From: a virus
UHGV virus genome: UHGV-0113711
Length of the DNA: 34,173 nucleotides
Direction: 5' to 3' (one strand)
Of the stretch, positions 8,401 through 25,485 are shown piece by piece. Each line of letters begins with the position of its first letter. Positions within the stretch are counted from its first letter, which is position 1. The notes under the pieces were generated by a model. That model did no database searches. It was not told the origin of the DNA and saw only the letters and a list, made by a program, of their open reading frames with translations. Both the position numbers and the translations under genes were made by a program.

Positions 8401-8587
8401 ATATACTCCTTTGTAAAACTATATTTATAGCCTCCATAACATTACAAAAGAATGATATTTTTAATTTGAGGTGTCGTCCAAATATGATTATATTCCAAAG
8501 TGACATTAATGAATATTGTCCCGACTACGGAATAGGGATTAAAATAAACCGTAACCGGGAAATATATTTATTATCCATTTTTAACCA

Positions 8588-10357
8588 TCATGGATAGTAC
8601 AAATTTTTAAAGTGATTATTAATATCAACCATAGCATCAAGAATTGGTTTGAACAATGAAAAATCTATAGTCTGTCTATTTTCTCTGATAATATTGTTGG
8701 CAAACCTGTCTTTTCCAAAAGTAGTAGTGCTATCATGATTATTACTTTTATCAAAGGATTTACCGTTAATTGTCTTTGTCAGAACTTCATCTTTGAAAAA
8801 GTCTTCCATGCACGATTGTTTATCACCAGCCAATAGTGGAGTTAACAATACGTAGAGGTTATTCTCTAAATGTAAAAATTTATGTTTTCTTACGTCCTCT
8901 GATTTTCTAGGCAGGTGAGAATATTCTTTGATTATATTATTAATAAAATCAGATGGCCCAGTGTCATTATCCAAAACAATTATTACTGGATTTTTAGGCG
9001 GTTGTCTTTCAAATTTCTTGCATTGTTCTCTATGCCTTCTAAAGAATCTTACATAGTCAGCAGCCCCACCGTAGAGGTCTAAAAAATATTCCTTTTTTGC
9101 GTTTGTTTTGAATAACGTAATATTTAAAATTCTATTCTTTGTTCTATCGTCAACTCTAACCAGAGCAGGATAACTTAAATACAAAGAATCAATTGCACAT
9201 TTCAAATAAATTGGATCTGTTTTACCTTCTGTCAAAACTGTAGGCTTTATATTCCCATAAAAATACTTATAATGAAGAAAGTTACTGAATGCTGTCTCTC
9301 TTGAATTCAATTTGAGAGTAAAATTAATTCCAGTTTTCTTTAGCACATATTTTTCTGGGAGTGTATGTTTTTTAGCGTTAATGTTATTATACTTATCAAG
9401 CATATCAATATAAACGAAGCGGCCTTCAAGTTCATTTAGAGTACCTTTTCGCGGTTTTCCACTAATATCCAAAAGGGTAAAATCCCCTTCTTTATAAAGT
9501 GCATGCGCCATAGCTCTGGTTTTTTTAATATAATCTTTATTGACATTTATTTTTTTGTTTACGGTTAAACCTGTTACTTCCTGCCTTGATGTATGCCGCA
9601 ATATTCTGGTCTTATTATTATTAATTTTAAATCCAGCTTTTTCAATTTCATTAACTAACAATGGTCCTAACTCGTTAGAATTCTCATTTATAACAATTGA
9701 GTCAGGAAACTGATTTTTGTTAGTTGAGAATGTTATATCATCTGCATATCGACTATAACTGCATCCATTAGAAAGTGCCAACTTTGACAATCTAATATCT
9801 AAAATATTACATATAAGATTGCTTATTACAGGAGAGCAAGGACTTCCTTGCGGAAGTTTTCCATCATAGCAAGCTATCTGCGCAATTATAGTTGCTATTG
9901 ATGGGTGCAAATTAAAATATTGATTCGCGATAAAATAACCACGGACCCTACCGAAATTAAATGTAGGGAAAAAATCCTCAAGATCAATATTTAAAACATT
10001 GGTTTTATTTCTATGTCTTTCTGCATTTGTTATTATTGTTTTATTTTTCTCAAATCCATGAGATAAGCTAGGGGTGATATTATTTGTTTTCCATATTTCG
10101 CTCTGACAAACATACAATAAATCTGATAAACGCCTTTGTATGTCTTTTAGTTTTTCAGTAGGCGCAAATATCTCTCTGTCACCTCCAGACTTCTTTTTTA
10201 TAATAAATCTTTCATATTGATGCTCAGGTCGTATTCTGTACAGGACATTAGTAAGAAAAGAAACTTTAATTTGAAGTAAGCGTGCAAACTCAAATTTGGT
10301 CTTGCATGACTTGAGTCTTTCTAAGTAGGAGGGAGTGAACATAATAGTAAATTCCAT
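8588..10357 (-). CDS. Retron-type reverse transcriptase with C-terminal Toprim domain (Ec67-family architecture)
   Basis: Reverse-transcriptase motifs are KKSGGDREIFAPT (box 1/2), LNIDLEDFFPTFNF (box A), LPQGSPCSPVISNLICNILD (box B'), YSRYADDITFST (box C, YADD) and SRQEVTGLTVN. The C-terminal ~250 aa carry Toprim signatures TVLTEGKTDPIYLK (conserved Glu) and PVIIVLDNDTGPSD (DxD). Size (584-589 aa) and block order match my recollection of the Ec67 reverse transcriptase (586 aa). The true start may be the Met at 10342. Confidence 0.9.
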   Translation of the reverse strand: MEFTIMFTPSYLERLKSCKTKFEFARLLQIKVSFLTNVLYRIRPEHQYERFIIKKKSGGDREIFAPTEKLKDIQRRLSDLLYVCQSEIWKTNNITPSLSHGFEKNKTIITNAERHRNKTNVLNIDLEDFFPTFNFGRVRGYFIANQYFNLHPSIATIIAQIACYDGKLPQGSPCSPVISNLICNILDIRLSKLALSNGCSYSRYADDITFSTNKNQFPDSIVINENSNELGPLLVNEIEKAGFKINNNKTRILRHTSRQEVTGLTVNKKINVNKDYIKKTRAMAHALYKEGDFTLLDISGKPRKGTLNELEGRFVYIDMLDKYNNINAKKHTLPEKYVLKKTGINFTLKLNSRETAFSNFLHYKYFYGNIKPTVLTEGKTDPIYLKCAIDSLYLSYPALVRVDDRTKNRILNITLFKTNAKKEYFLDLYGGAADYVRFFRRHREQCKKFERQPPKNPVIIVLDNDTGPSDFINNIIKEYSHLPRKSEDVRKHKFLHLENNLYVLLTPLLAGDKQSCMEDFFKDEVLTKTINGKSFDKSNNHDSTTTFGKDRFANNIIRENRQTIDFSLFKPILDAMVDINNHFKNLYYP

Positions 10358-10373
10358 TATTAATTATGTTATT

Positions 10374-10502
10374 GCACATGCAGGCACTCTTACGCATTTC
10401 AAAGTGACGCCCAAGAAGATCCGACGTCCGTCAGAGGCGAATACTGCCGACCTTTTAATCACTGATTGCGATACCACAACCAACAAATCTACCTGCATGT
10501 GC
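10374..10502 (-). ncRNA. Candidate retron msr-msd non-coding RNA bounded by a1/a2 inverted repeats (approximate)
   Basis: Perfect 11-bp inverted repeat: gcacatgcagg (10374..10384) and cctgcatgtgc (10492..10502), spanning 129 bp immediately 5' of the reverse-transcriptase start on the minus strand. This is the position and scale expected for retron a2/a1. The internal msr/msd boundary and branch G are not determined. Confidence 0.5.
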
Positions 10503-10787
10503 CTTGCTAATTTATCATAGTTAACAATCAAAACAAGCACTTTTGAAAATGGCTGTATCTTATTGATTAACTAATCATGGTCAAAGCCGAACATTCCTCG
10601 TGAAGATTGTTAGAATTTGAGATCTTTACGAGCACTTAACAGACTGTCAGATTCAGTCATGGAGCAAGTTGAATGCAATGTTATCATGTATCACTTTTTC
10701 TTTTTCGTCGTTAAGATGGTTCATAAAACTTACCATTAAGTCGATTGATAACTAGTAATTACATCTGTAGGTTCTCTTGATGATTTG

Positions 10788-11528
10788 TCAGAGGGCATTT
10801 GAGCTAAATAAAGTTGATTCGACGAGTTCAATTGCTTCATCTTCGATAGTTGATTTGTCCATTGTTTTGGTCGGCTCAGAAATATCAATTTTCACAATTA
10901 CAATCTCGTCATCAAAAGATAGTTTTTCACCCCTTCTTTCTTTACGTAAAACGCTGTTCTCTTTGCTGAGTTCAGCGTTTTTCCTTTCTAACTCTGCGAC
11001 TCTTTTCATCAAATCTTCCATTTTGGAATTCACAACATCTAGTCTCTGCTCAGTCGGAAATTCAATACTTTCGATGATTTCAATAAATTCACCAGTATAC
11101 ATCTGAACAAACTGCTCGGTGTCTTTGATCTTCTGCATTCTTAGATCTGAACAGAAAGCTTTCCACGAGTTCTTTTTACCGTTAATTTCACAAGCAACGA
11201 TAACAGCATTATCGGTTGTATAAGCAACGATTGCAGGCAGATTATTAACTTCGGTCGTACCGATTTCGAAGCTATGCATATTTTTTACAGTCACAGCATT
11301 TTCAATCTTCTGTAACATCTTAGCTCGAACATTACGATGAATATCTATAGCTTTAACAAGAGCTTTCAGGCTGTTTTTGTTATTGGTCATTCTATTAACT
11401 TTGATAATATTTCTGTTCAGGCTTGCTTTAACTGTTCTGTCTAGATTTTCGAAGACTGCAAATTTGAAATTCAATTTATTTGCCTTTATTGATTGGTTGA
11501 GTTCTGATATTACGTTTTTTGCAAGCAT
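10788..11528 (-). CDS. Hypothetical protein (246 aa) with coiled-coil C-terminus
   Basis: Long ORF on the same strand as the retron and upstream of it. C-terminal KMEDLMKRVAELERKNAELSKENSVLRKERR is coiled-coil-like. The start may be a later Met because the 5' end overlaps the upstream small ORF. Confidence 0.6.
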   Translation of the reverse strand: MLAKNVISELNQSIKANKLNFKFAVFENLDRTVKASLNRNIIKVNRMTNNKNSLKALVKAIDIHRNVRAKMLQKIENAVTVKNMHSFEIGTTEVNNLPAIVAYTTDNAVIVACEINGKKNSWKAFCSDLRMQKIKDTEQFVQMYTGEFIEIIESIEFPTEQRLDVVNSKMEDLMKRVAELERKNAELSKENSVLRKERRGEKLSFDDEIVIVKIDISEPTKTMDKSTIEDEAIELVESTLFSSNAL

Positions 11529-11634
11529 TATACATCGTTGCTTTATTCATTTGTTTAGATTCTGCAATTTGCTGAAATGTCTCACCAGAGTCTAAGCGAG
11601 ATTCAATTTCGAATTTGTTAGGTATAAATTTCAT
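11476..11634 (-). CDS. Small putative HTH DNA-binding protein (52 aa)
   Basis: Internal Met of track ORF 11476..11670. ETFQQIAESKQMNKATMYNACKK resembles a helix-turn-helix. Weak ribosome-binding site; overlaps the downstream 246-aa ORF by ~50 bp in another frame. Confidence 0.35.
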   Translation of the reverse strand: MKFIPNKFEIESRLDSGETFQQIAESKQMNKATMYNACKKRNIRTQPINKGK

Positions 11635-11665
11635 GGGGTTGCCTTTTTTATTGAATTGAAAAATA

Positions 11666-11683
11666 AGCACTCCGAAGAGTGCT
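11666..11683. terminator. Hairpin agcactc-cgaa-gagtgct flanked by A/T runs
   Basis: 7-bp stem with a 4-nt loop. The upstream A-run (plus strand) would be a T-run for minus-strand transcripts, so it may insulate the HTH gene from the non-coding region to its right. Confidence 0.35.
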
Positions 11684-12016
11684 TTAAACTTAAGGAATTT
11701 TTAAATGAACTAAGCTAATTGCTTATATCTTATTTTATGACGGATAAAGTCAGTAGTAAACAAACGAGAGAAAATAACGAGGAAGAAGAAACTCTCTGTG
11801 TTCATACTAATATTTATATAGTTCACCGAAAGTGTAAACAAAGTCCGAAAAATAATTTAGTGAAAAGCAGGTGCATTGATGCACATCAAAACGCATCGAT
11901 AACGCATCGATGCGACTCGGAGAAGTGCATGGACCCTAGAAAAAATCGCCCTATAAGAACAATTGGATAAAGATGAACTGGAAGGATATAGAAGCAGTAC
12001 AAAACCTGGAAAACAT

Positions 12017-12159
12017 AGCGAAGCGAGCAGATTGCGCGAAGCGCGGGCGAAGCCCTAATTGATAAACATTAGCGCGAAGCGCGACAGATAACACTATCGA
12101 ACTTGATTACTAGCTACTGATTAGATGTTTCTAGATAAAGATTATTAGCGCTTCGCGCG
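12017..12159. repeat. Cluster of GCGAAGC mini-hairpin motifs (four direct, one inverted) in an otherwise AT-rich non-coding region
   Basis: GCGAAGC at 12017..12023, 12035..12041 (within gcgcgaagcgcg), 12046..12052 (within gggcgaagccc) and 12073..12079 (within gcgcgaagcgcg). The inverted copy gcgcttcgcgcg is at 12148..12159. Confidence 0.6.
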
Positions 12160-12621
12160 TTCGCTACGCTCACAATATTATTTTTCAGATCTGGATAATA
12201 ATGATTACTGGATAACTGCATTATACTGTTCGTCTGACAATCAATAAACATAACGATCGATAATTAATTGAAATAACGTTAATGAGTTCTCCTTCGCTAT
12301 CGCTACGTCGAACGGGCAAGCCCTATCTTTGATGATAGTAATGATTGACTGCTACATCATCCCTCCTCGCTTCTCCCTGCTTCTACTGACCTAATGATAC
12401 TCCAAGTCAATTCCCTGTTATCAAGTTCACCTGATGCTTCCTGCTTCGTTATCGACCTTATTGCTTTTGACTCTACGCTTTCAGCTTCGCAGGAAGTACG
12501 CCCTGCTGTTTGCAGATCGTTCTAAAGAACTGAGTAATCAAGTTCTCAACTATTTGATTCCTTGCGCCCCAAAGATGCCTCCAGTATCTGTGGTTTACAA
12601 TCTACTCATTTGAAATTCAAT

Positions 12622-12648
12622 AAAAAAGGGAGCACTAAGCTCCCTTTT
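12622..12648. terminator. Bidirectional Rho-independent terminator
   Basis: aaaaaa-gggagc-actaa-gctccc-tttt: a 6-bp GC-rich stem (12628..12644) flanked by an A-run and a T-run, immediately 3' of the 59-codon minus-strand gene. Confidence 0.7.
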
Positions 12649-12649
12649 G

Positions 12650-12829
12650 TCATTTCAGACCAAGCACTAATGCTTGTTCAAGTTTTTTCTCAAGCAGAGT
12701 GTTTAATCCACTTTCGAAAAATTCAATCGCTTGAACGTCTGAGTCTGTTTTTAAGCGAACAGCGGCATCGTCAACTGTTAACTCTTCGGTCTTAACATCA
12801 CCGTTTTTATAAACCACATTAGCAATCAT
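12650..12829 (-). CDS. Small acidic protein (59 aa), self-contained transcription unit
   Basis: ATG at 12829 preceded by AAAGGAGA; translation MIANVVYKNGDVKTEELTVDDAAVRLKTDSDVQAIEFFESGLNTLLEKKLEQALVLGLK. Absent from the ORF track (below its apparent length cutoff). Has its own promoter and terminator. Confidence 0.6.
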   Translation of the reverse strand: MIANVVYKNGDVKTEELTVDDAAVRLKTDSDVQAIEFFESGLNTLLEKKLEQALVLGLK

Positions 12830-13647: not shown

Positions 13648-15531
13648 ATGAAAAACTCAAATAAACTGAAAAGTATCTTACAGAATGCAAAGCGCTTTTT
13701 AATGCCACCTCCTGACTACACTCCGTCCGAGTGGGTCGAACAGTACCTGAAATTCCCTGATGGTCCTTATACAGGGCAGCCGATGAAACTGTTTGAGTTT
13801 CAGAAAGGCATGATTGACGTCATTAAAGAACGTAAGAAGAAAATCGTCTTCGAGACTTCTGCCCAGATTGGCAAGACAACCATCTTGAACGGAATTCTGT
13901 TCTATAAGTCTGCTACTGATCCCGGTAACGCTGGTGTCTTGCAGTCAACCGGTAAAGAGACGACTCAATGGCTATCAGGCAAGATTCGCCCAATGATTGA
14001 CGAATCGGAAGAAATGCAACGAATCGTCACCGACAAGAACGACAGAAACGCAGTGAATAACACCAGTCAAATTCAGCTACGTGCTGGAGGCTTTTGGTAT
14101 TTCATGTCGCTCAATAGCCCTTCTCACTTACGCGGTAAAACTCTTCCGCTGATGTTGCTTGATGAAGTTGACGCAGTTGAAACAGACACAGAAGAAGGCA
14201 ACCCGATTATCATCGCGGAACAACGTGCTACGACGTTCGGTGAAGACGCTCGTGTTTTCATTAGCTCGACGCCTACAAGTAAATACGGTGCTATCCACAC
14301 GCAGTATGAAGCATCCGACAAGCGCAAGTATCATGTTCCCTGTCCTACATGTGGTCATAAGCACGAACTGACGTGGGAGAATATCAAATTCGACTGGGTA
14401 AAAATCGATGGTAAATCATTACCTGATCCTAACTCTGCCAGAATTGAATGTCCTGAATGTCATCACGCTTTCTCTGAAGGCGACCGAGCACGAGCAATTA
14501 AACAAGGTGAATGGATTATTCATCAACCTGAAAGTCGAATTGCTGGATTCCACGTAAGTCGTTTATACAGCCCAATGAGTTCTATCAAATCAGTTGTTGA
14601 AGACTATAAGCAAGCATGGCAAACGTTCAGCTTGTCAACGTTTTATAACACTGTTCTTGGTCTACCGTTTGATGATTTAAACGAAGACATTGAGGTTAGT
14701 AAATTAGAAACACTCAAGACGAATATCGGCATCAGCAATATACCAGAAGACACGTTGTTTTTAACCGCTGGGGTTGACCAACAGCAAGACCGTTTAGAAG
14801 TAACCTTGATGGGTCACAACGAACGAACCGTTTATATTCTTGCACATCGTAGCTTTATGACAATGAACGCTGAGGTTATCGATTCCCCTGCTTATAAAGA
14901 ACTTCTTGCATACGTTAAAGCACCGTTCAGAACAGCTTTGGGAAGAAAGGTTCCTTTAGCGTGGGTGAACGTCGATAGCTCAAACGGTCGAGCAACTAAA
15001 ACAATCTATCGTTTCTGCTCTCAGTGGACAAACCTGAAAGCAATTAAAGGTGCCAGCTCTGTTGATGCCCCTTATGTTCCAACGAAAATCACGAAAACCG
15101 GTGGTTATGAACTTTATATGATTGGTGTAAACCAAGGAAAAAACTTAGTTCGTGAACTGCTAAACAGAAGCGTGAAATCTGGAAATACACCAGTCAGAGT
15201 CGAAATCTCTGATGATGTTCCAGATGATTACTGCGAACAGCTTATGTCCGAAGAATTAAAACGCTCTGGTAATACTGTTAGATGGGTTATTAAACAAGGC
15301 GGTGTTCGTAACGAAGGTCTTGACTGCTTTAACTACGGTTATTGCGCGCGTCTGCAAGTTCTAGAGAAAATCAAATTTCACGAGTGGAGGAAACTCGCTG
15401 CTAAATCTGATATTGAAATGCCAGAAGAACAAAACGAAACAAATTCTCCTGTTATTCAAACTCATGAACCTCGTCGAAACATTATCAAACGAAACAGACC
15501 AGTTAATAAGCCTCGTGGTTTCGGATTATAA
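13648..15531 (+). CDS. Terminase large subunit, lambda GpA family
   Basis: N-terminal PPPDYTPSEWVEQYLKFPDG parallels the lambda A N-terminus. The ATPase region IVFETSAQIGKTT and the zinc-finger-like HVPCPTCGHKHELTWENIKFD...ECPECHH parallel lambda A VACPHCGEEQYLKFGD. Length 627 aa. Confidence 0.85.
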   Translation: MKNSNKLKSILQNAKRFLMPPPDYTPSEWVEQYLKFPDGPYTGQPMKLFEFQKGMIDVIKERKKKIVFETSAQIGKTTILNGILFYKSATDPGNAGVLQSTGKETTQWLSGKIRPMIDESEEMQRIVTDKNDRNAVNNTSQIQLRAGGFWYFMSLNSPSHLRGKTLPLMLLDEVDAVETDTEEGNPIIIAEQRATTFGEDARVFISSTPTSKYGAIHTQYEASDKRKYHVPCPTCGHKHELTWENIKFDWVKIDGKSLPDPNSARIECPECHHAFSEGDRARAIKQGEWIIHQPESRIAGFHVSRLYSPMSSIKSVVEDYKQAWQTFSLSTFYNTVLGLPFDDLNEDIEVSKLETLKTNIGISNIPEDTLFLTAGVDQQQDRLEVTLMGHNERTVYILAHRSFMTMNAEVIDSPAYKELLAYVKAPFRTALGRKVPLAWVNVDSSNGRATKTIYRFCSQWTNLKAIKGASSVDAPYVPTKITKTGGYELYMIGVNQGKNLVRELLNRSVKSGNTPVRVEISDDVPDDYCEQLMSEELKRSGNTVRWVIKQGGVRNEGLDCFNYGYCARLQVLEKIKFHEWRKLAAKSDIEMPEEQNETNSPVIQTHEPRRNIIKRNRPVNKPRGFGL

Positions 15532-25068: not shown

Positions 25069-25485
25069 ATGTTTAAATTTCAGGCTGACTTATCAAAATT
25101 ACTTAATCGCTATATCAATCAGCAACACGTTTTCGGTCAAAACGACTGTAATATCCTTGTTGCTGAATATATCGACCTTGTTTGTGCTACTGAATACACA
25201 GACAAATTAAAAGACAAATACACGAGTATTCCTGAAGGACTGAAGATCTGTAAAGACCTAACAGGATTTAATAACGTTCTCGAAGCGTGTGAAACGCATC
25301 TTGAGAAATCAGAAACTATAGAAACAGGCTCGGTTATCTTAATTAAGAAAAAGCATAAAAACCGAATCTATTACGTTGCGTCTATCGTTTTTAATAATAG
25401 AGCATTAGTTGAACATGAAAATAAATATCAACTGATAAACGTCAACGATTTTAATTTTGAATTAATTTTTAACAGGAGAAAATAA
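25069..25485 (+). CDS. Hypothetical protein (138 aa), possible papain-like (NlpC/P60-type) fold
   Basis: NDCNILVAEY and later His residues loosely resemble the Cys/His motifs of NlpC/P60 tail-assembly proteins. Weak. Confidence 0.5.
   Translation: MFKFQADLSKLLNRYINQQHVFGQNDCNILVAEYIDLVCATEYTDKLKDKYTSIPEGLKICKDLTGFNNVLEACETHLEKSETIETGSVILIKKKHKNRIYYVASIVFNNRALVEHENKYQLINVNDFNFELIFNRRK

What the first reader, a model, noticed from the sequence alone, without database searches (positions are those of the whole stretch)
12017..12160. Cluster of GCGAAGC mini-hairpin motifs in AT-rich non-coding DNA
Four direct copies and one inverted copy of GCGAAGC fall within 145 bp, three of them embedded in longer GC palindromes (gcgcgaagcgcg twice, gggcgaagccc). 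From established knowledge, d(GCGAAGC) forms an unusually stable DNA mini-hairpin and occurs at single-strand replication origins. In an AT-rich element that also encodes a single-stranded-DNA-producing retron, this could be an origin, primase or initiator site, or protein-binding array. Nearby are further short direct repeats (cctgcttc-N-gacc at ~12374 and ~12438; gata-r-taatgatt at ~12193 and ~12331).
Basis: partly seen in the sequence, partly recalled or inferred. Interest (0 to 1): 0.5.

Follow-up and report, generated by a model that had tools for sequence, protein, structure and literature searches.

The report
Conserved DNA mini-hairpin array in prophage
A rare E. coli prophage-like element carries a 1-kb gene-free control region with a cluster of tiny GC hairpins whose loops follow the rule for unusually stable DNA hairpins; relatives keep the hairpins while changing their stems, so the DNA structure is probably what is selected, most likely as a strand-opening or priming site, though no function has been tested.

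Summary
GCGAAGC occurs at 12018, 12036, 12047 and 12074 (+) and 12150 (-), five copies in 145 bp. No shuffle gave more than 3.

The window is a ~32.6-kb prophage-like element between ybiT and ldtB, present in 6 of 5426 complete E. coli genomes. I found head, tail, lysis, recombinase and defence genes but no recognisable replication genes. The cluster lies in a ~1-kb non-coding stretch (11636-12650). That stretch runs from a leftward operon (HTH protein plus coiled-coil protein) to the packaging genes.

Twelve alignable relatives and four distant lineages, including phage DCP80, have the same layout. It has lineage-specific iterons, then short GC hairpins with loops G-N-A or G-NN-A on the + strand. 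An AT-rich spacer follows, then hairpins of the same kind on the - strand.

Stems change by compensatory substitution. Loop variants (GAA, GTA, GCA, GTAA, GTTA, GTCA) stay within the DNA mini-hairpin consensus. Relatives without the retron keep the array, so it is unrelated to the retron. No Rfam family matches and no convincing conserved RNA fold was found.

Best reading (confidence 0.35): a cis-acting DNA site whose strands fold when opened, an origin-like or priming signal analogous to IncQ ssiA/ssiB but of opposite polarity. Rivals are a leader-RNA element, a packaging site, and operator palindromes.

The parts
11636..12650 (.). Whole non-coding control region between the leftward HTH/coiled-coil operon and the small - strand ORF that precedes the packaging genes
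   Evidence: No conserved ORF. It is 67-87% identical in 11 alignable relatives. The same layout occurs in distant lineages.
11665..11684 (-). 8-bp hairpin with a UUCG loop followed by a T-run, in the 5' leader of the leftward operon (or the end of a ~70-nt sRNA)
   Evidence: Relatives have a different stem with a GCAA loop, a compensatory change. There is a weak sRNA-like Rfam hit only.
11732..11760 (-). Sigma-70-like leftward promoter TTTACT-17-TAAAAT
   Evidence: Both hexamers are conserved while the spacer varies. This is an inference, not shown experimentally.
11871..11914 (.). Iteron/palindrome block: GTGCATTGATGCAC and AACGCATCGAT x2 (CGCATCGATGCG)
   Evidence: It is conserved within clade 1. 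Distant lineages have different repeat families at the same place: GTGCAACGTT x7, AATGCAATTTCTGAACC x3, GGTATACTTCTGTGAAAAGTATACC x5.
11930..12000 (+). Most conserved block. It contains a candidate rightward promoter, TGGACC (11930-11935) - 16 nt - TATAAG (11952-11957).
   Evidence: CCCTATAAGAACAAT is invariant in 12 sequences. The promoter assignment is my inference from the sequence.
12018..12024 (+). h1: GCGAAGC minimal mini-hairpin
   Evidence: Present in 9 of 12 relatives.
12034..12044 (+). h2: GCGC-GAA-GCGC, left member of the twin hairpin
   Evidence: It is replaced by GGG-CTTG-CCC in L030/L039 and weakened in L009.
12045..12055 (+). h3: GGGC-GAA-GCCC, right member of the twin hairpin
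   Evidence: 100% paired in 9 sequences, with two covarying pairs (GGGC/GCCC, TGGC/GCCA, GCGC/GCGC). Loops are GAA, GTA or GTTA.
12072..12082 (+). h4: GCGC-GAA-GCGC
   Evidence: Loop variants GTAA (L002, L042) and GTA (L039), with the stem kept.
12084..12143 (.). AT-rich spacer of variable length, where the purine-rich strand switches
   Evidence: About 30% GC. The cumulative GC and AT skew turns here. Length is 60-110 nt in relatives.
12148..12158 (-). h5: GCGC-GAA-GCGC read on the - strand
   Evidence: Invariant in all 12 sequences.
12163..12169 (-). h6: GCGTAGC read on the - strand
   Evidence: The variants GCGTCAGC (L009) and GCGAAGC (L040) keep the GCG(N)NAGC rule on the - strand.
12314..12323 (.). 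GGG-CAAG-CCC hairpin (G(CUUG)C on the - strand)
   Evidence: CAAG-loop hairpins with other stems occur in L021, L026 and L042.
12358..12460 (.). Pyrimidine-rich conserved blocks (TCCCTCCTCGCTTCTCCCTGCT; CCTGATGC..CCTGCTT..CGACC), partly complementary to the purine-rich left arm
   Evidence: (I3, I9, I19).
12484..12490 (-). Sixth GCGAAGC copy, on the - strand
   Evidence: It lies in the part that is poorly conserved in relatives.
12624..12648 (.). Bidirectional intrinsic-terminator-like hairpin closing the region on the right
   Evidence: I16.

Best explanation
The GCGAAGC cluster is the core of a conserved cis-acting DNA element, not a gene and not part of the retron.

It is an array of DNA mini-hairpins with a C:G closing pair and a G-N-A or G-NN-A loop. 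Four lie on the + strand (12018-12082) and two on the - strand (12148-12169). They face each other across an AT-rich spacer. Lineage-specific iterons and divergent promoters lie just to the left.

Proposed mechanism (inferred). A protein bound at the iterons, and/or transcription from the flanking promoter, opens the AT-rich DNA. The separated strands then snap into the very stable mini-hairpins. These keep the site open and free of SSB, and mark one start point on each strand for a primase or polymerase.

This makes it an origin-like single-strand initiation site. It would be used by host enzymes or by a co-infecting phage, because I found no recognisable replication gene in the element.

Shown: the motifs, their clustering, their conservation, the compensatory stem changes, the loop rule, and the strand order.

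Inferred: folding in vivo, the opening step, and priming or replication.
For: - **Clustering.** Five copies lie in 145 bp; no shuffle exceeded 3.
- **Family-wide enrichment.** There are 2-6 GNA-type hairpins with stems of 4 bp or more per ~1-kb region in 12 lineages. Shuffles give 0.12-0.33. The other 33 kb of the window holds 6. In DCP80 all five GC-rich ones fall in the first 1.03 kb, against 9 scattered over a further 62 kb.
- **Structure is what is kept.** 91.7% of cells pair, against 84.5% in shuffles. Five pairs change on both sides, and h3 is 100% paired with three stem versions. Distant lineages have unrelated stems with the same loops.
- **Loop variants fit the DNA rule.** GAA, GTA, GCA, GTAA, GTTA and GTCA all fit GCGNAGC/GCGNNAGC (PMC13037366). 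GTTA and GTCA are not RNA GNRA loops. The region's evident RNA hairpins instead have 7-8-bp stems with UUCG or GCAA loops.
- **Strand order.** Hairpins on the + strand come first and those on the - strand second, in clade 1, L021, L026 and L032.
- **Neighbouring features.** Iterons that differ by lineage lie next to the array. The AT-rich spacer sits at the skew switch.
- **Precedents.** Mini-hairpins occur at the G4/St-1/alpha3 primase sites and in RSF1010 ssiA. IncQ oriV combines iterons with two ssi hairpins on complementary strands (PMC13037366, PMC8567376; checked on an IncQ plasmid).
- **No conserved RNA fold, no Rfam family**.
Against: - The polarity is the reverse of IncQ, where the ssiB hairpin is on the - strand to the left of the ssiA hairpin on the + strand.
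- There is no sequence similarity to ssiA/ssiB, and no match to any plasmid.
- The stems are only 2-5 bp in clade 1, so folding needs prior strand separation.
- A candidate promoter just upstream means h1-h4 are probably also transcribed, so an RNA role is not excluded.
- The region sits just upstream of the packaging genes, and the DCP80 record begins at its left edge. This also fits a packaging site.
- Only about 5 independent lineages exist within clade 1, so covariation statistics are modest. The shuffle control does not correct for relatedness.
Confidence: 0.35

Rival explanations
1. RNA-level element. The region is transcribed from the candidate rightward promoter (about 11930-11957) as a long leader or ~680-nt non-coding RNA that ends at the 12624-12648 terminator. 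A convergent transcript may come from the right. The small hairpins would act in the RNA, for stability, processing, pausing or antitermination, or in leader-peptide control.
For: - The TGGACC-16-TATAAG block is invariant immediately upstream.
- A terminator closes the region.
- Both strands fold better than shuffles, z = -3.6 (+) and -5.9 (-).
- A small ORF (11973-12062) runs through h1-h3 in every relative.
- With convergent transcription, both RNAs would carry the G-N-A loops.
Against: - The RNAalifold consensus is weak (-32/-42 kcal/mol over 789 columns), and its only long helix is the trivial h4:h5 pairing.
- No Rfam family matches.
- Triloops on 2-4-bp stems are poor RNA hairpins. The same elements use 7-8-bp stems with UUCG/GCAA loops where an RNA hairpin is evident.
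- The GTTA and GTCA loop variants are not GNRA.
- The fold z-scores are similar on both strands, as expected for DNA dyad symmetry.
- The small ORF changes frame and peptide between relatives.
- No conserved leftward promoter was found on the right side.
Confidence: 0.25
2. Packaging site. The region is the cos/pac recognition region of the gpA-type terminase. The iterons would be small-terminase binding sites (like lambda cosB R sites). The GC-rich hairpin block would be part of the cleavage or initiation site.
For: - TerL is a lambda gpA-type enzyme, and the region lies upstream of it in every lineage.
- The iterons are lineage-specific, as terminase recognition sites often are.
- The DCP80 record starts at the left edge of its version of the region, with repeats 85-240 nt from the end.
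- GC-rich islands in AT-rich DNA resemble cohesive-end sequences.
Against: - The terS-like gene is 3-5.5 kb away, across a converging operon.
- A 1-kb site with 4-6 hairpins is far larger than known cos sites.
- The GC block varies between elements whose TerL is 82-100% identical, whereas cosN is usually conserved.
- Self-folding overhangs would hinder end annealing.
- No contig ends or terminal data map here.
Confidence: 0.2
3. Double-stranded operator sites. The short palindromes GCGC-N3-GCGC and GGGC-N3-GCCC would be bound as duplex DNA by a dimeric regulator of the divergent promoters. No hairpin would ever form.
For: - h4 and h5 share the flank ATTAGCGC...GCGCG with only the central triplet inverted (D1), as expected if the centre is not read.
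- Three HTH proteins are encoded next to the region.
Against: - A symmetric dimer does not explain why the first and last loop bases stay G and A while the middle base varies. It also does not explain the kept C:G closing pair.
- Loop length changes from 3 to 4 nt, which would shift the half-site spacing.
- The stems are completely different in lineages that keep the loop rule.
- The small HTH protein does not co-vary with the repeats: L039 and L043 share repeats but have HTH proteins about 40% identical.
Confidence: 0.13
4. The array is connected with the retron, as a target, template or origin for its single-stranded DNA, or it is a chance or decaying remnant with no function.
For: The retron lies 1.3-3.4 kb to the left in the window.
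Against: - Four E. coli genomes and many other relatives lack the retron yet keep the array.
- The retron's own msr/msd is at about 10380-10503.
- The clustering and the conservation with covariation exclude chance.
Confidence: 0.03

Closest known systems
IncQ (RSF1010/R1162) oriV: RepC iterons, an AT-rich stretch, and ssiA/ssiB priming hairpins
   Same: Both have direct repeats followed by AT-rich DNA and two hairpin signals on complementary strands. In both, each hairpin is capped by a C-GNA-G mini-hairpin. In an IncQ plasmid the loops are CCGAAGG in ssiA and CGCAG in ssiB (PMC8567376, PMC13037366).
   Different: - The polarity is reversed. IncQ has the - strand hairpin first and the + strand hairpin second; here it is + then -. 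Priming would therefore run outward rather than toward each other.
- Here there are 4+2 short hairpins instead of two 40-nt signals.
- There is no sequence similarity.
- There are no RepA/RepB'/RepC genes, and the host is a tailed prophage-like element, not a plasmid.
DnaG-dependent complementary-strand origins of phages G4, St-1 and alpha3 (G-site ssi signals)
   Same: Both have clustered hairpins that contain GCGAAAGC or GCGTTAGC mini-hairpin sequences at the primase start site. L042 has the same GCGTTAGC-type loop, GGGC-GTTA-GCCC (PMC13037366).
   Different: Those are ssDNA phages with three longer hairpins on one strand. This is a dsDNA element with hairpins on both strands, and no primer start site is known.
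Phage N4 virion RNA polymerase early promoters (DNA hairpin promoters)
   Same: Both have a 3-nt G-N-A loop closed by C:G on a short stem, extruded from duplex DNA (PMC13037366).
   Different: N4 needs a 5-7-bp stem and a purine in the loop centre. Relatives here have GTA and GCA loops. No vRNAP-like gene is present.
Lambda-type cos region (cosQ-cosN-cosB with R-site repeats)
   Same: Both lie upstream of a gpA-type large terminase gene and have repeats nearby.
   Different: This region is about five times larger. It contains hairpin arrays that are not a feature of known cos sites, the terS-like gene is distant, and no termini have been mapped.

Membership tests
DNA mini-hairpin motif (GCGNAGC / GCGNNAGC, Hirao) | Sequence G-C-G-N(N)-A-G-C: a C:G closing pair, loop starting with G and ending with A | tested here: met
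   Six copies in the window. All loop variants in relatives (GAA, GTA, GCA, GTAA, GTTA, GTCA) fit.
DNA mini-hairpin motif (GCGNAGC / GCGNNAGC, Hirao) | Selection acts on the fold: stems covary, and the middle loop base is free | tested here: met
   5 pairs with double changes, 91.7% paired. Unrelated stems occur in L021, L026, L032 and DCP80. The number of independent lineages is modest.
DNA mini-hairpin motif (GCGNAGC / GCGNNAGC, Hirao) | Exceptional thermal and nuclease stability of the folded single strand | not testable with these tools
   Nearest-neighbour DNA folding may not carry a special term for GNA loops. It prefers a long h1h2:h5h6 stem, z about -2.
IncQ-type oriV | Iterons bound by an initiator next to an AT-rich stretch | tested here: inconclusive
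   Repeats and an AT-rich spacer are present. No initiator was identified, and binding was not tested.
IncQ-type oriV | Two ssi hairpins on complementary strands, arranged as in RSF1010 | tested here: not met
   The hairpins are on complementary strands but with the opposite polarity. There is no sequence similarity.
IncQ-type oriV | RepA helicase, RepB' primase and RepC initiator encoded by the replicon | tested here: not met
   No such genes appear in Pfam, PHROGs or NCBIfam scans of the ORFs I scanned, i.e. most of the large ones.
G4-type (DnaG) single-strand initiation signal | Three adjacent hairpins on one strand with a primase start (CTG) 3' of hairpin I, and SSB dependence | not tested
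   Three to four adjacent + strand hairpins exist. No CTG lies directly 3' of them. A priming assay is needed.
N4 vRNAP hairpin promoter | 5-7-bp stem, 3-nt loop with a central purine, and a vRNAP gene in the genome | tested here: not met
   Stems are 2-4 bp in the window. Relatives have central T or C. No giant RNAP gene is present.
Lambda-type cos | Mapped cohesive termini within the site; terS binding repeats adjacent | not testable with these tools
   A gpA-type TerL is present. The termini are unknown, and only the start of the DCP80 record is suggestive.
Known RNA families (Rfam 15) | A covariance-model match at the gathering score | tested here: not met
   No hit in the window. Only terminator-driven sub-threshold hits appear in 11500-12800.
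Retron msr/msd | a1/a2 inverted repeats directly upstream of the RT on the same strand; co-occurrence with the RT | tested here: not met
   msr/msd is at about 10380-10503 (-). The array persists in relatives that lack the retron.

The most novel reading that the evidence does not exclude
The array, together with its iterons, is the replication or priming origin of a tailed prophage-like element that encodes a full virion but no replisome. The hairpins would recruit host primase, or the replication machinery of a superinfecting T4-like phage. Phage DCP80 joins this same structural module and non-coding region to T4-type replication genes. If so, the element would be amplified and packaged as a structurally self-sufficient satellite. 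This would be a new kind of origin built from convergent DNA mini-hairpins.
Probability: 0.1. Interest if true: 0.8.

Novelty: new variant of a known kind. Interest (0 to 1): 0.5.

Why it matters
DNA mini-hairpins are well characterised chemically, but only a few biological sites are known: the G4-type primase sites, IncQ ssiA/ssiB, and the N4 promoters.

Here a whole family of enterobacterial prophage-like elements, plus one phage, maintains an array of them. The comparative evidence (covarying stems, a strict G..A loop rule, a fixed strand order) suggests that the DNA fold itself is under selection.

If the array is a priming or opening site, it would explain how an element with no recognisable replication genes gets copied. 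It would also give a compact, testable model for hairpin-marked initiation on duplex DNA. If it is a packaging or RNA element, it would still be a new type of signal.

The region also lies next to a defence-gene hotspot (retron, TIR, AAA+HNH). Its role therefore bears on how such cargo is mobilised.

Tried and rejected
- **Retron ncRNA.** Rejected. msr/msd is at about 10380-10503 (-), and relatives without the retron keep the array.
- **Hidden protein gene.** Rejected. The 83-aa ORF 11719-11970 gives only a weak zf-His_Me_endon hit (E = 0.004). Its frame and peptide are not conserved. The 29-aa ORF through h1-h3 changes frame in relatives.
- **Known RNA family or tRNA.** None.
- **Large structured ncRNA.** The RNAalifold consensus is weak on both strands. 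The single-sequence z-scores are negative on both strands, which fits DNA dyad symmetry.
- **DNA similarity to phages and plasmids.** No match. A scan of one genome per species found nothing.
- **Co-variation of repeat type with the small HTH, terS-like or coiled-coil proteins.** Not informative. The HTH does not track the repeats.
- **T4-type late promoters (TATAAATA) as a general feature of the element.** Not enriched, 3 against 1.9 expected.
- **Alignment of the DCP80 record ends to the window, to place a cos cut.** Only low-scoring matches that could arise by chance.
- **Generic T4-like intergenic hairpins.** Rejected. In DCP80 the GC-rich GNA hairpins are confined to this one region.
- **DnaA boxes.** Only near-matches specific to the window at 12190-12215, not conserved.
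Full report
**Observation**

GCGAAGC is present at 12018, 12036, 12047 and 12074 on the + strand and at 12150 on the - strand. A sixth copy lies at 12484 (-). The window holds ten copies against 3.2 expected.

Three + strand copies and the - strand copy sit inside perfect 4-bp-stem palindromes:
- GCGC-GAA-GCGC at 12034 and 12072
- GGGC-GAA-GCCC at 12045
- GCGC-TTC-GCGC at 12148

Five copies in 145 bp is not chance. The largest cluster in 1000 dinucleotide shuffles of the window was 3, seen once. In 2000 shuffles of the non-coding stretch alone it was 2.

**Context**

The window matches the chromosomes of E. coli 2021CK-01361 (100%) and MS 115-1 (99.9%). Four further genomes carry a 74-76% identical relative, making 6 of 5426 complete genomes.

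The element fills the gap between ybiT and ldtB, about 32.6 kb, which is essentially the whole window. Its genes are:
- a large serine recombinase
- a lysozyme
- a TIR protein
- a terS-like protein (7533-8081)
- an Ec67-family retron RT (8588-10357, -)
- a gpA-type large terminase (13648-15531)
- portal, protease-capsid fusion, tail fibre, J-like protein, endonuclease VII and tape measure

Pfam, PHROGs and NCBIfam scans of the ORFs I scanned (most of the large ones) gave no replication function.

The retron's own ncRNA, with its a1/a2 repeats, is at about 10380-10503 (-). The relatives in L3Cip3 and 2017.06.05CC lack the retron but keep the region under study. The retron is therefore cargo and is unrelated to the cluster.

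**The region**

11636-12650 has no conserved ORF. The longest one (83 aa) falls in different frames with unrelated peptides in relatives. This is expected in T-poor, purine-rich DNA.

From left to right the region holds:
1. On the - strand, an 8-bp UUCG hairpin with a T-run (11665-11684) downstream of a conserved TTTACT-17-TAAAAT promoter (11760-11732). This is the leader of a leftward operon encoding a 52-aa HTH protein and a ~230-aa coiled-coil protein.
2. Two GTAAACAAA repeats.
3. A repeat/palindrome block, GTGCATTGATGCAC and AACGCATCGAT x2 (11871-11914).
4. The most conserved block, which contains a candidate rightward promoter, TGGACC-16-TATAAG (11930-11957).
5. Hairpins h1-h4 on the + strand (12018-12082).
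6. An AT-rich spacer of variable length (12084-12143).
7. Hairpins h5 and h6, which read GCGCGAAGCGC and GCGTAGC on the - strand (12148-12169).
8. Further AT-rich DNA, a CAAG-loop hairpin (12314-12323) and pyrimidine-rich blocks.
9. A bidirectional terminator (12624-12648).

The + strand is purine-rich to the left of the spacer and pyrimidine-rich to the right. [h1+h2] is an imperfect inverted repeat of [h5+h6].

**Relatives**

I collected relatives in three ways: exact-pattern scans, TerL-based locus searches, and look-ups of homologues of the coiled-coil protein. These homologues occur in E. coli, Citrobacter, Enterobacter and Kluyvera.

This gave 12 alignable versions of the region (56-80% identical to the window in the alignment; 67-87% between blastn-alignable pairs). 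It also gave four distant lineages that cannot be aligned at the DNA level: L021, L026, L032 and phage DCP80 (TerL 52-75% identical).

Three of the four distant lineages share the layout. A leftward operon with a UUCG leader hairpin is followed by repeats specific to the lineage, and then by a cluster of short GC-rich hairpins. DCP80 has its own repeats and hairpin cluster but lacks the leftward operon (a thymidine-kinase-like gene lies on its left), and its hairpin orientations are mixed. The repeats are:
- L026: GTGCAACGTT x7
- L021: AATGCAATTTCTGAACC x3
- L032: GGTATACTTCTGTGAAAAGTATACC x5
- DCP80: a 33-nt palindrome x2

**Evidence that the hairpin fold is selected**

Within clade 1 the stems and loops vary as follows:

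| Hairpin | Variants seen |
|---|---|
| h3 | GGGC-GAA-GCCC, TGGC-GAA-GCCA, GCGC-GAA-GCGC, GGGC-GTA-GCCC, GGGC-GTTA-GCCC |
| h4 | loop GAA, GTAA or GTA on the same stem |
| h6 (- strand) | GCGTAGC, GCGTCAGC or GCGAAGC |
| h2 | can be replaced by GGG-CTTG-CCC |
| h5 | invariant |

On a 9-sequence alignment, 91.7% of cells pair against 84.5% after shuffling. Five of 20 pairs change on both sides, a value reached in 4 of 500 shuffles. The covariation score is 0.162 against 0.052, reached in 0 of 500 shuffles. Slid controls collapse. These controls do not remove relatedness, and only about five lineages are independent, so the support is moderate.

The distant lineages add stronger evidence. Their stems are unrelated (GTGGGC, TGGCC, TCCGCCC, GACGC, TCGGC, GCTCC and others), but the loops are again GAA, GTA or GCA, or their complements, closed by C:G.

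Each of 12 lineages has 2-6 such hairpins (stem of 4 bp or more) per ~1 kb, against 0.12-0.33 in shuffles. The rest of the window has 6 in 33 kb. In DCP80 all five GC-rich ones lie within the first 1.03 kb, and about 62 kb of other sequence has nine scattered AT-rich ones.

**DNA or RNA?**

The loop rule (first base G, last base A, middle base or bases free, C:G closing pair) is the published consensus for extraordinarily stable DNA mini-hairpins, GCGNAGC/GCGNNAGC (Kimoto and Hirao 2026, PMC13037366). Several points favour DNA:
- Two of the three tetraloop variants (GTTA, GTCA) are not GNRA.
- Where these elements have an evident RNA hairpin (the leftward leader), it has 7-8 bp and a UUCG or GCAA loop.
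- RNAalifold finds no convincing conserved fold over 789 columns on either strand.
- Rfam finds nothing.
- Single-sequence folding beats shuffles on both strands (z = -3.6 and -5.9). This is what DNA-level dyad symmetry gives.

An RNA role is not excluded, because h1-h4 lie about 55-120 nt downstream of the candidate rightward promoter.

**Strand order**

In clade 1, L021, L026 and L032, all hairpins with G-N-A on the + strand precede all those with G-N-A on the - strand. If the lineages are treated as independent, this order has a chance of roughly 1 in 700 (my arithmetic). DCP80 is mixed.

The hairpin-bearing strands therefore run 5' to 3' toward the AT-rich centre. A primer laid on them would be extended outward.

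**Comparison with known systems**

The closest architecture is IncQ oriV. It has RepC iterons, AT-rich DNA, and ssiA and ssiB on complementary strands, each capped by a mini-hairpin (PMC8567376, PMC13037366).

I checked this on an IncQ1 plasmid. The iterons are at 353-413, a GCA-loop hairpin lies on the - strand at 606-616, and a GAA-loop hairpin lies on the + strand at 712-722. That polarity is the opposite of the polarity found here. There is also no sequence similarity and no RepA/B'/C. The element may therefore work like such an origin, but it is not a member of that family.

- **N4 hairpin promoters** need a purine in the loop centre and a vRNAP gene. Neither condition holds here.
- **A lambda-type cos site** is a live alternative. 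TerL is gpA-type, the region always lies upstream of it, and the DCP80 record begins at the region's left edge. Against this, the site is very large, the GC block varies between near-identical TerLs, the terS-like gene is distant, and no termini are known.
- **Duplex operator palindromes** do not explain the loop rule, the 3-to-4-nt loop changes, or the unrelated stems. The small HTH protein does not track the repeat type.

**Verdict**

The DNA mini-hairpin reading is supported by comparative evidence. The retron link is rejected.

My best mechanistic reading is an origin-like opening and priming site: iterons or a promoter open the AT-rich DNA, and mini-hairpins on each strand mark and hold the site. 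I give this a confidence of 0.35. The rivals are an RNA leader element (0.25), a packaging site (0.2), operators (0.13), and a retron link or chance (0.03). The remainder is unassigned.

The array is a new variant of a known kind of signal, found in an unusual host element with no recognisable replisome. Its function needs the experiments listed under next steps.

Noticed in passing
window 8188-11635; L041 3591-5391; L002 5379-7177; L037 3274-3289: The slot between the terS-like gene and the leftward HTH/coiled-coil operon is a cargo hotspot. It holds an Ec67-type retron in the window, an AAA_21 ATPase plus HNH in L041, three unknown genes in L002/L044, and nothing in L037.
   Followed up: partly
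window 1515-5293 and 25485-34173: The tail module is oddly arranged. The tape measure is the last gene at the right end. The distal tail and hub genes are on the opposite strand at the left end, next to the serine recombinase. The J-like gene precedes the tape measure. This suggests an inversion or rearrangement, or a defective element. TerL carries IS insertions in both sequenced E. coli strains that hold this allele.
   Followed up: no
whole window: The ORFs I scanned in the 32.6-kb element gave no recognisable replication, repressor or antirepressor genes, although the element has a complete head, tail, lysis and terminase set.
   Followed up: partly
L012/L014/L027 (phage DCP80, PQ671644): The 141-kb record combines T4-like genes (motA, rIIA x2 inverted, gp44/45/46/47-like, gp55-like sigma, topoisomerase, tk) with this lambda-like/siphovirus structural module (TerL 52% identical). 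It is either a genuine chimeric phage or a mixed assembly. A TATAAATA late promoter precedes its packaging operon at 1259.
   Followed up: partly
window 11655-11760 (-): A promoter plus a UUCG hairpin with a T-run could make a ~70-nt sRNA or an attenuated leader. The intervening sequence AGTTCATTTAAAAATTCCTTAAG is highly conserved and carries an anti-SD-like UUCCUUAA. There is a weak Rfam TarB hit (E = 0.003), far below the gathering score.
   Followed up: no
window 11811-11818 (-): The T4 late-promoter consensus TATAAATA is kept exactly at this position in L037, L039, L042 and L044, and with 1-2 changes elsewhere. It is not enriched in the window as a whole (3 against 1.9 expected).
   Followed up: partly
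window 11642-11662 and 12609-12629: A 21-nt inverted repeat (90% complementary) brackets the whole non-coding region in the window. The right arm lies in sequence that relatives do not share.
   Followed up: no
L002 9037-9651; L042 1668-2114; L021 3377-3883; L026 3386-3875; L032 3882-4370: Free-standing homing endonuclease genes (NUMOD3/GIY-YIG type, HNH type) sit at the right edge of the region in relatives, or inside it. The window has none there. This is consistent with the region being a conserved target.
   Followed up: no
[not shown]
   Followed up: yes
window 11973-12062 (+): A 29-aa ORF (MNWKDIEAV...) starts in the invariant block and reads through h1-h3. Every relative has an ORF from the same ATG, but with a different length (9-40 aa), frame and peptide beyond the first 9 residues.
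   Followed up: partly
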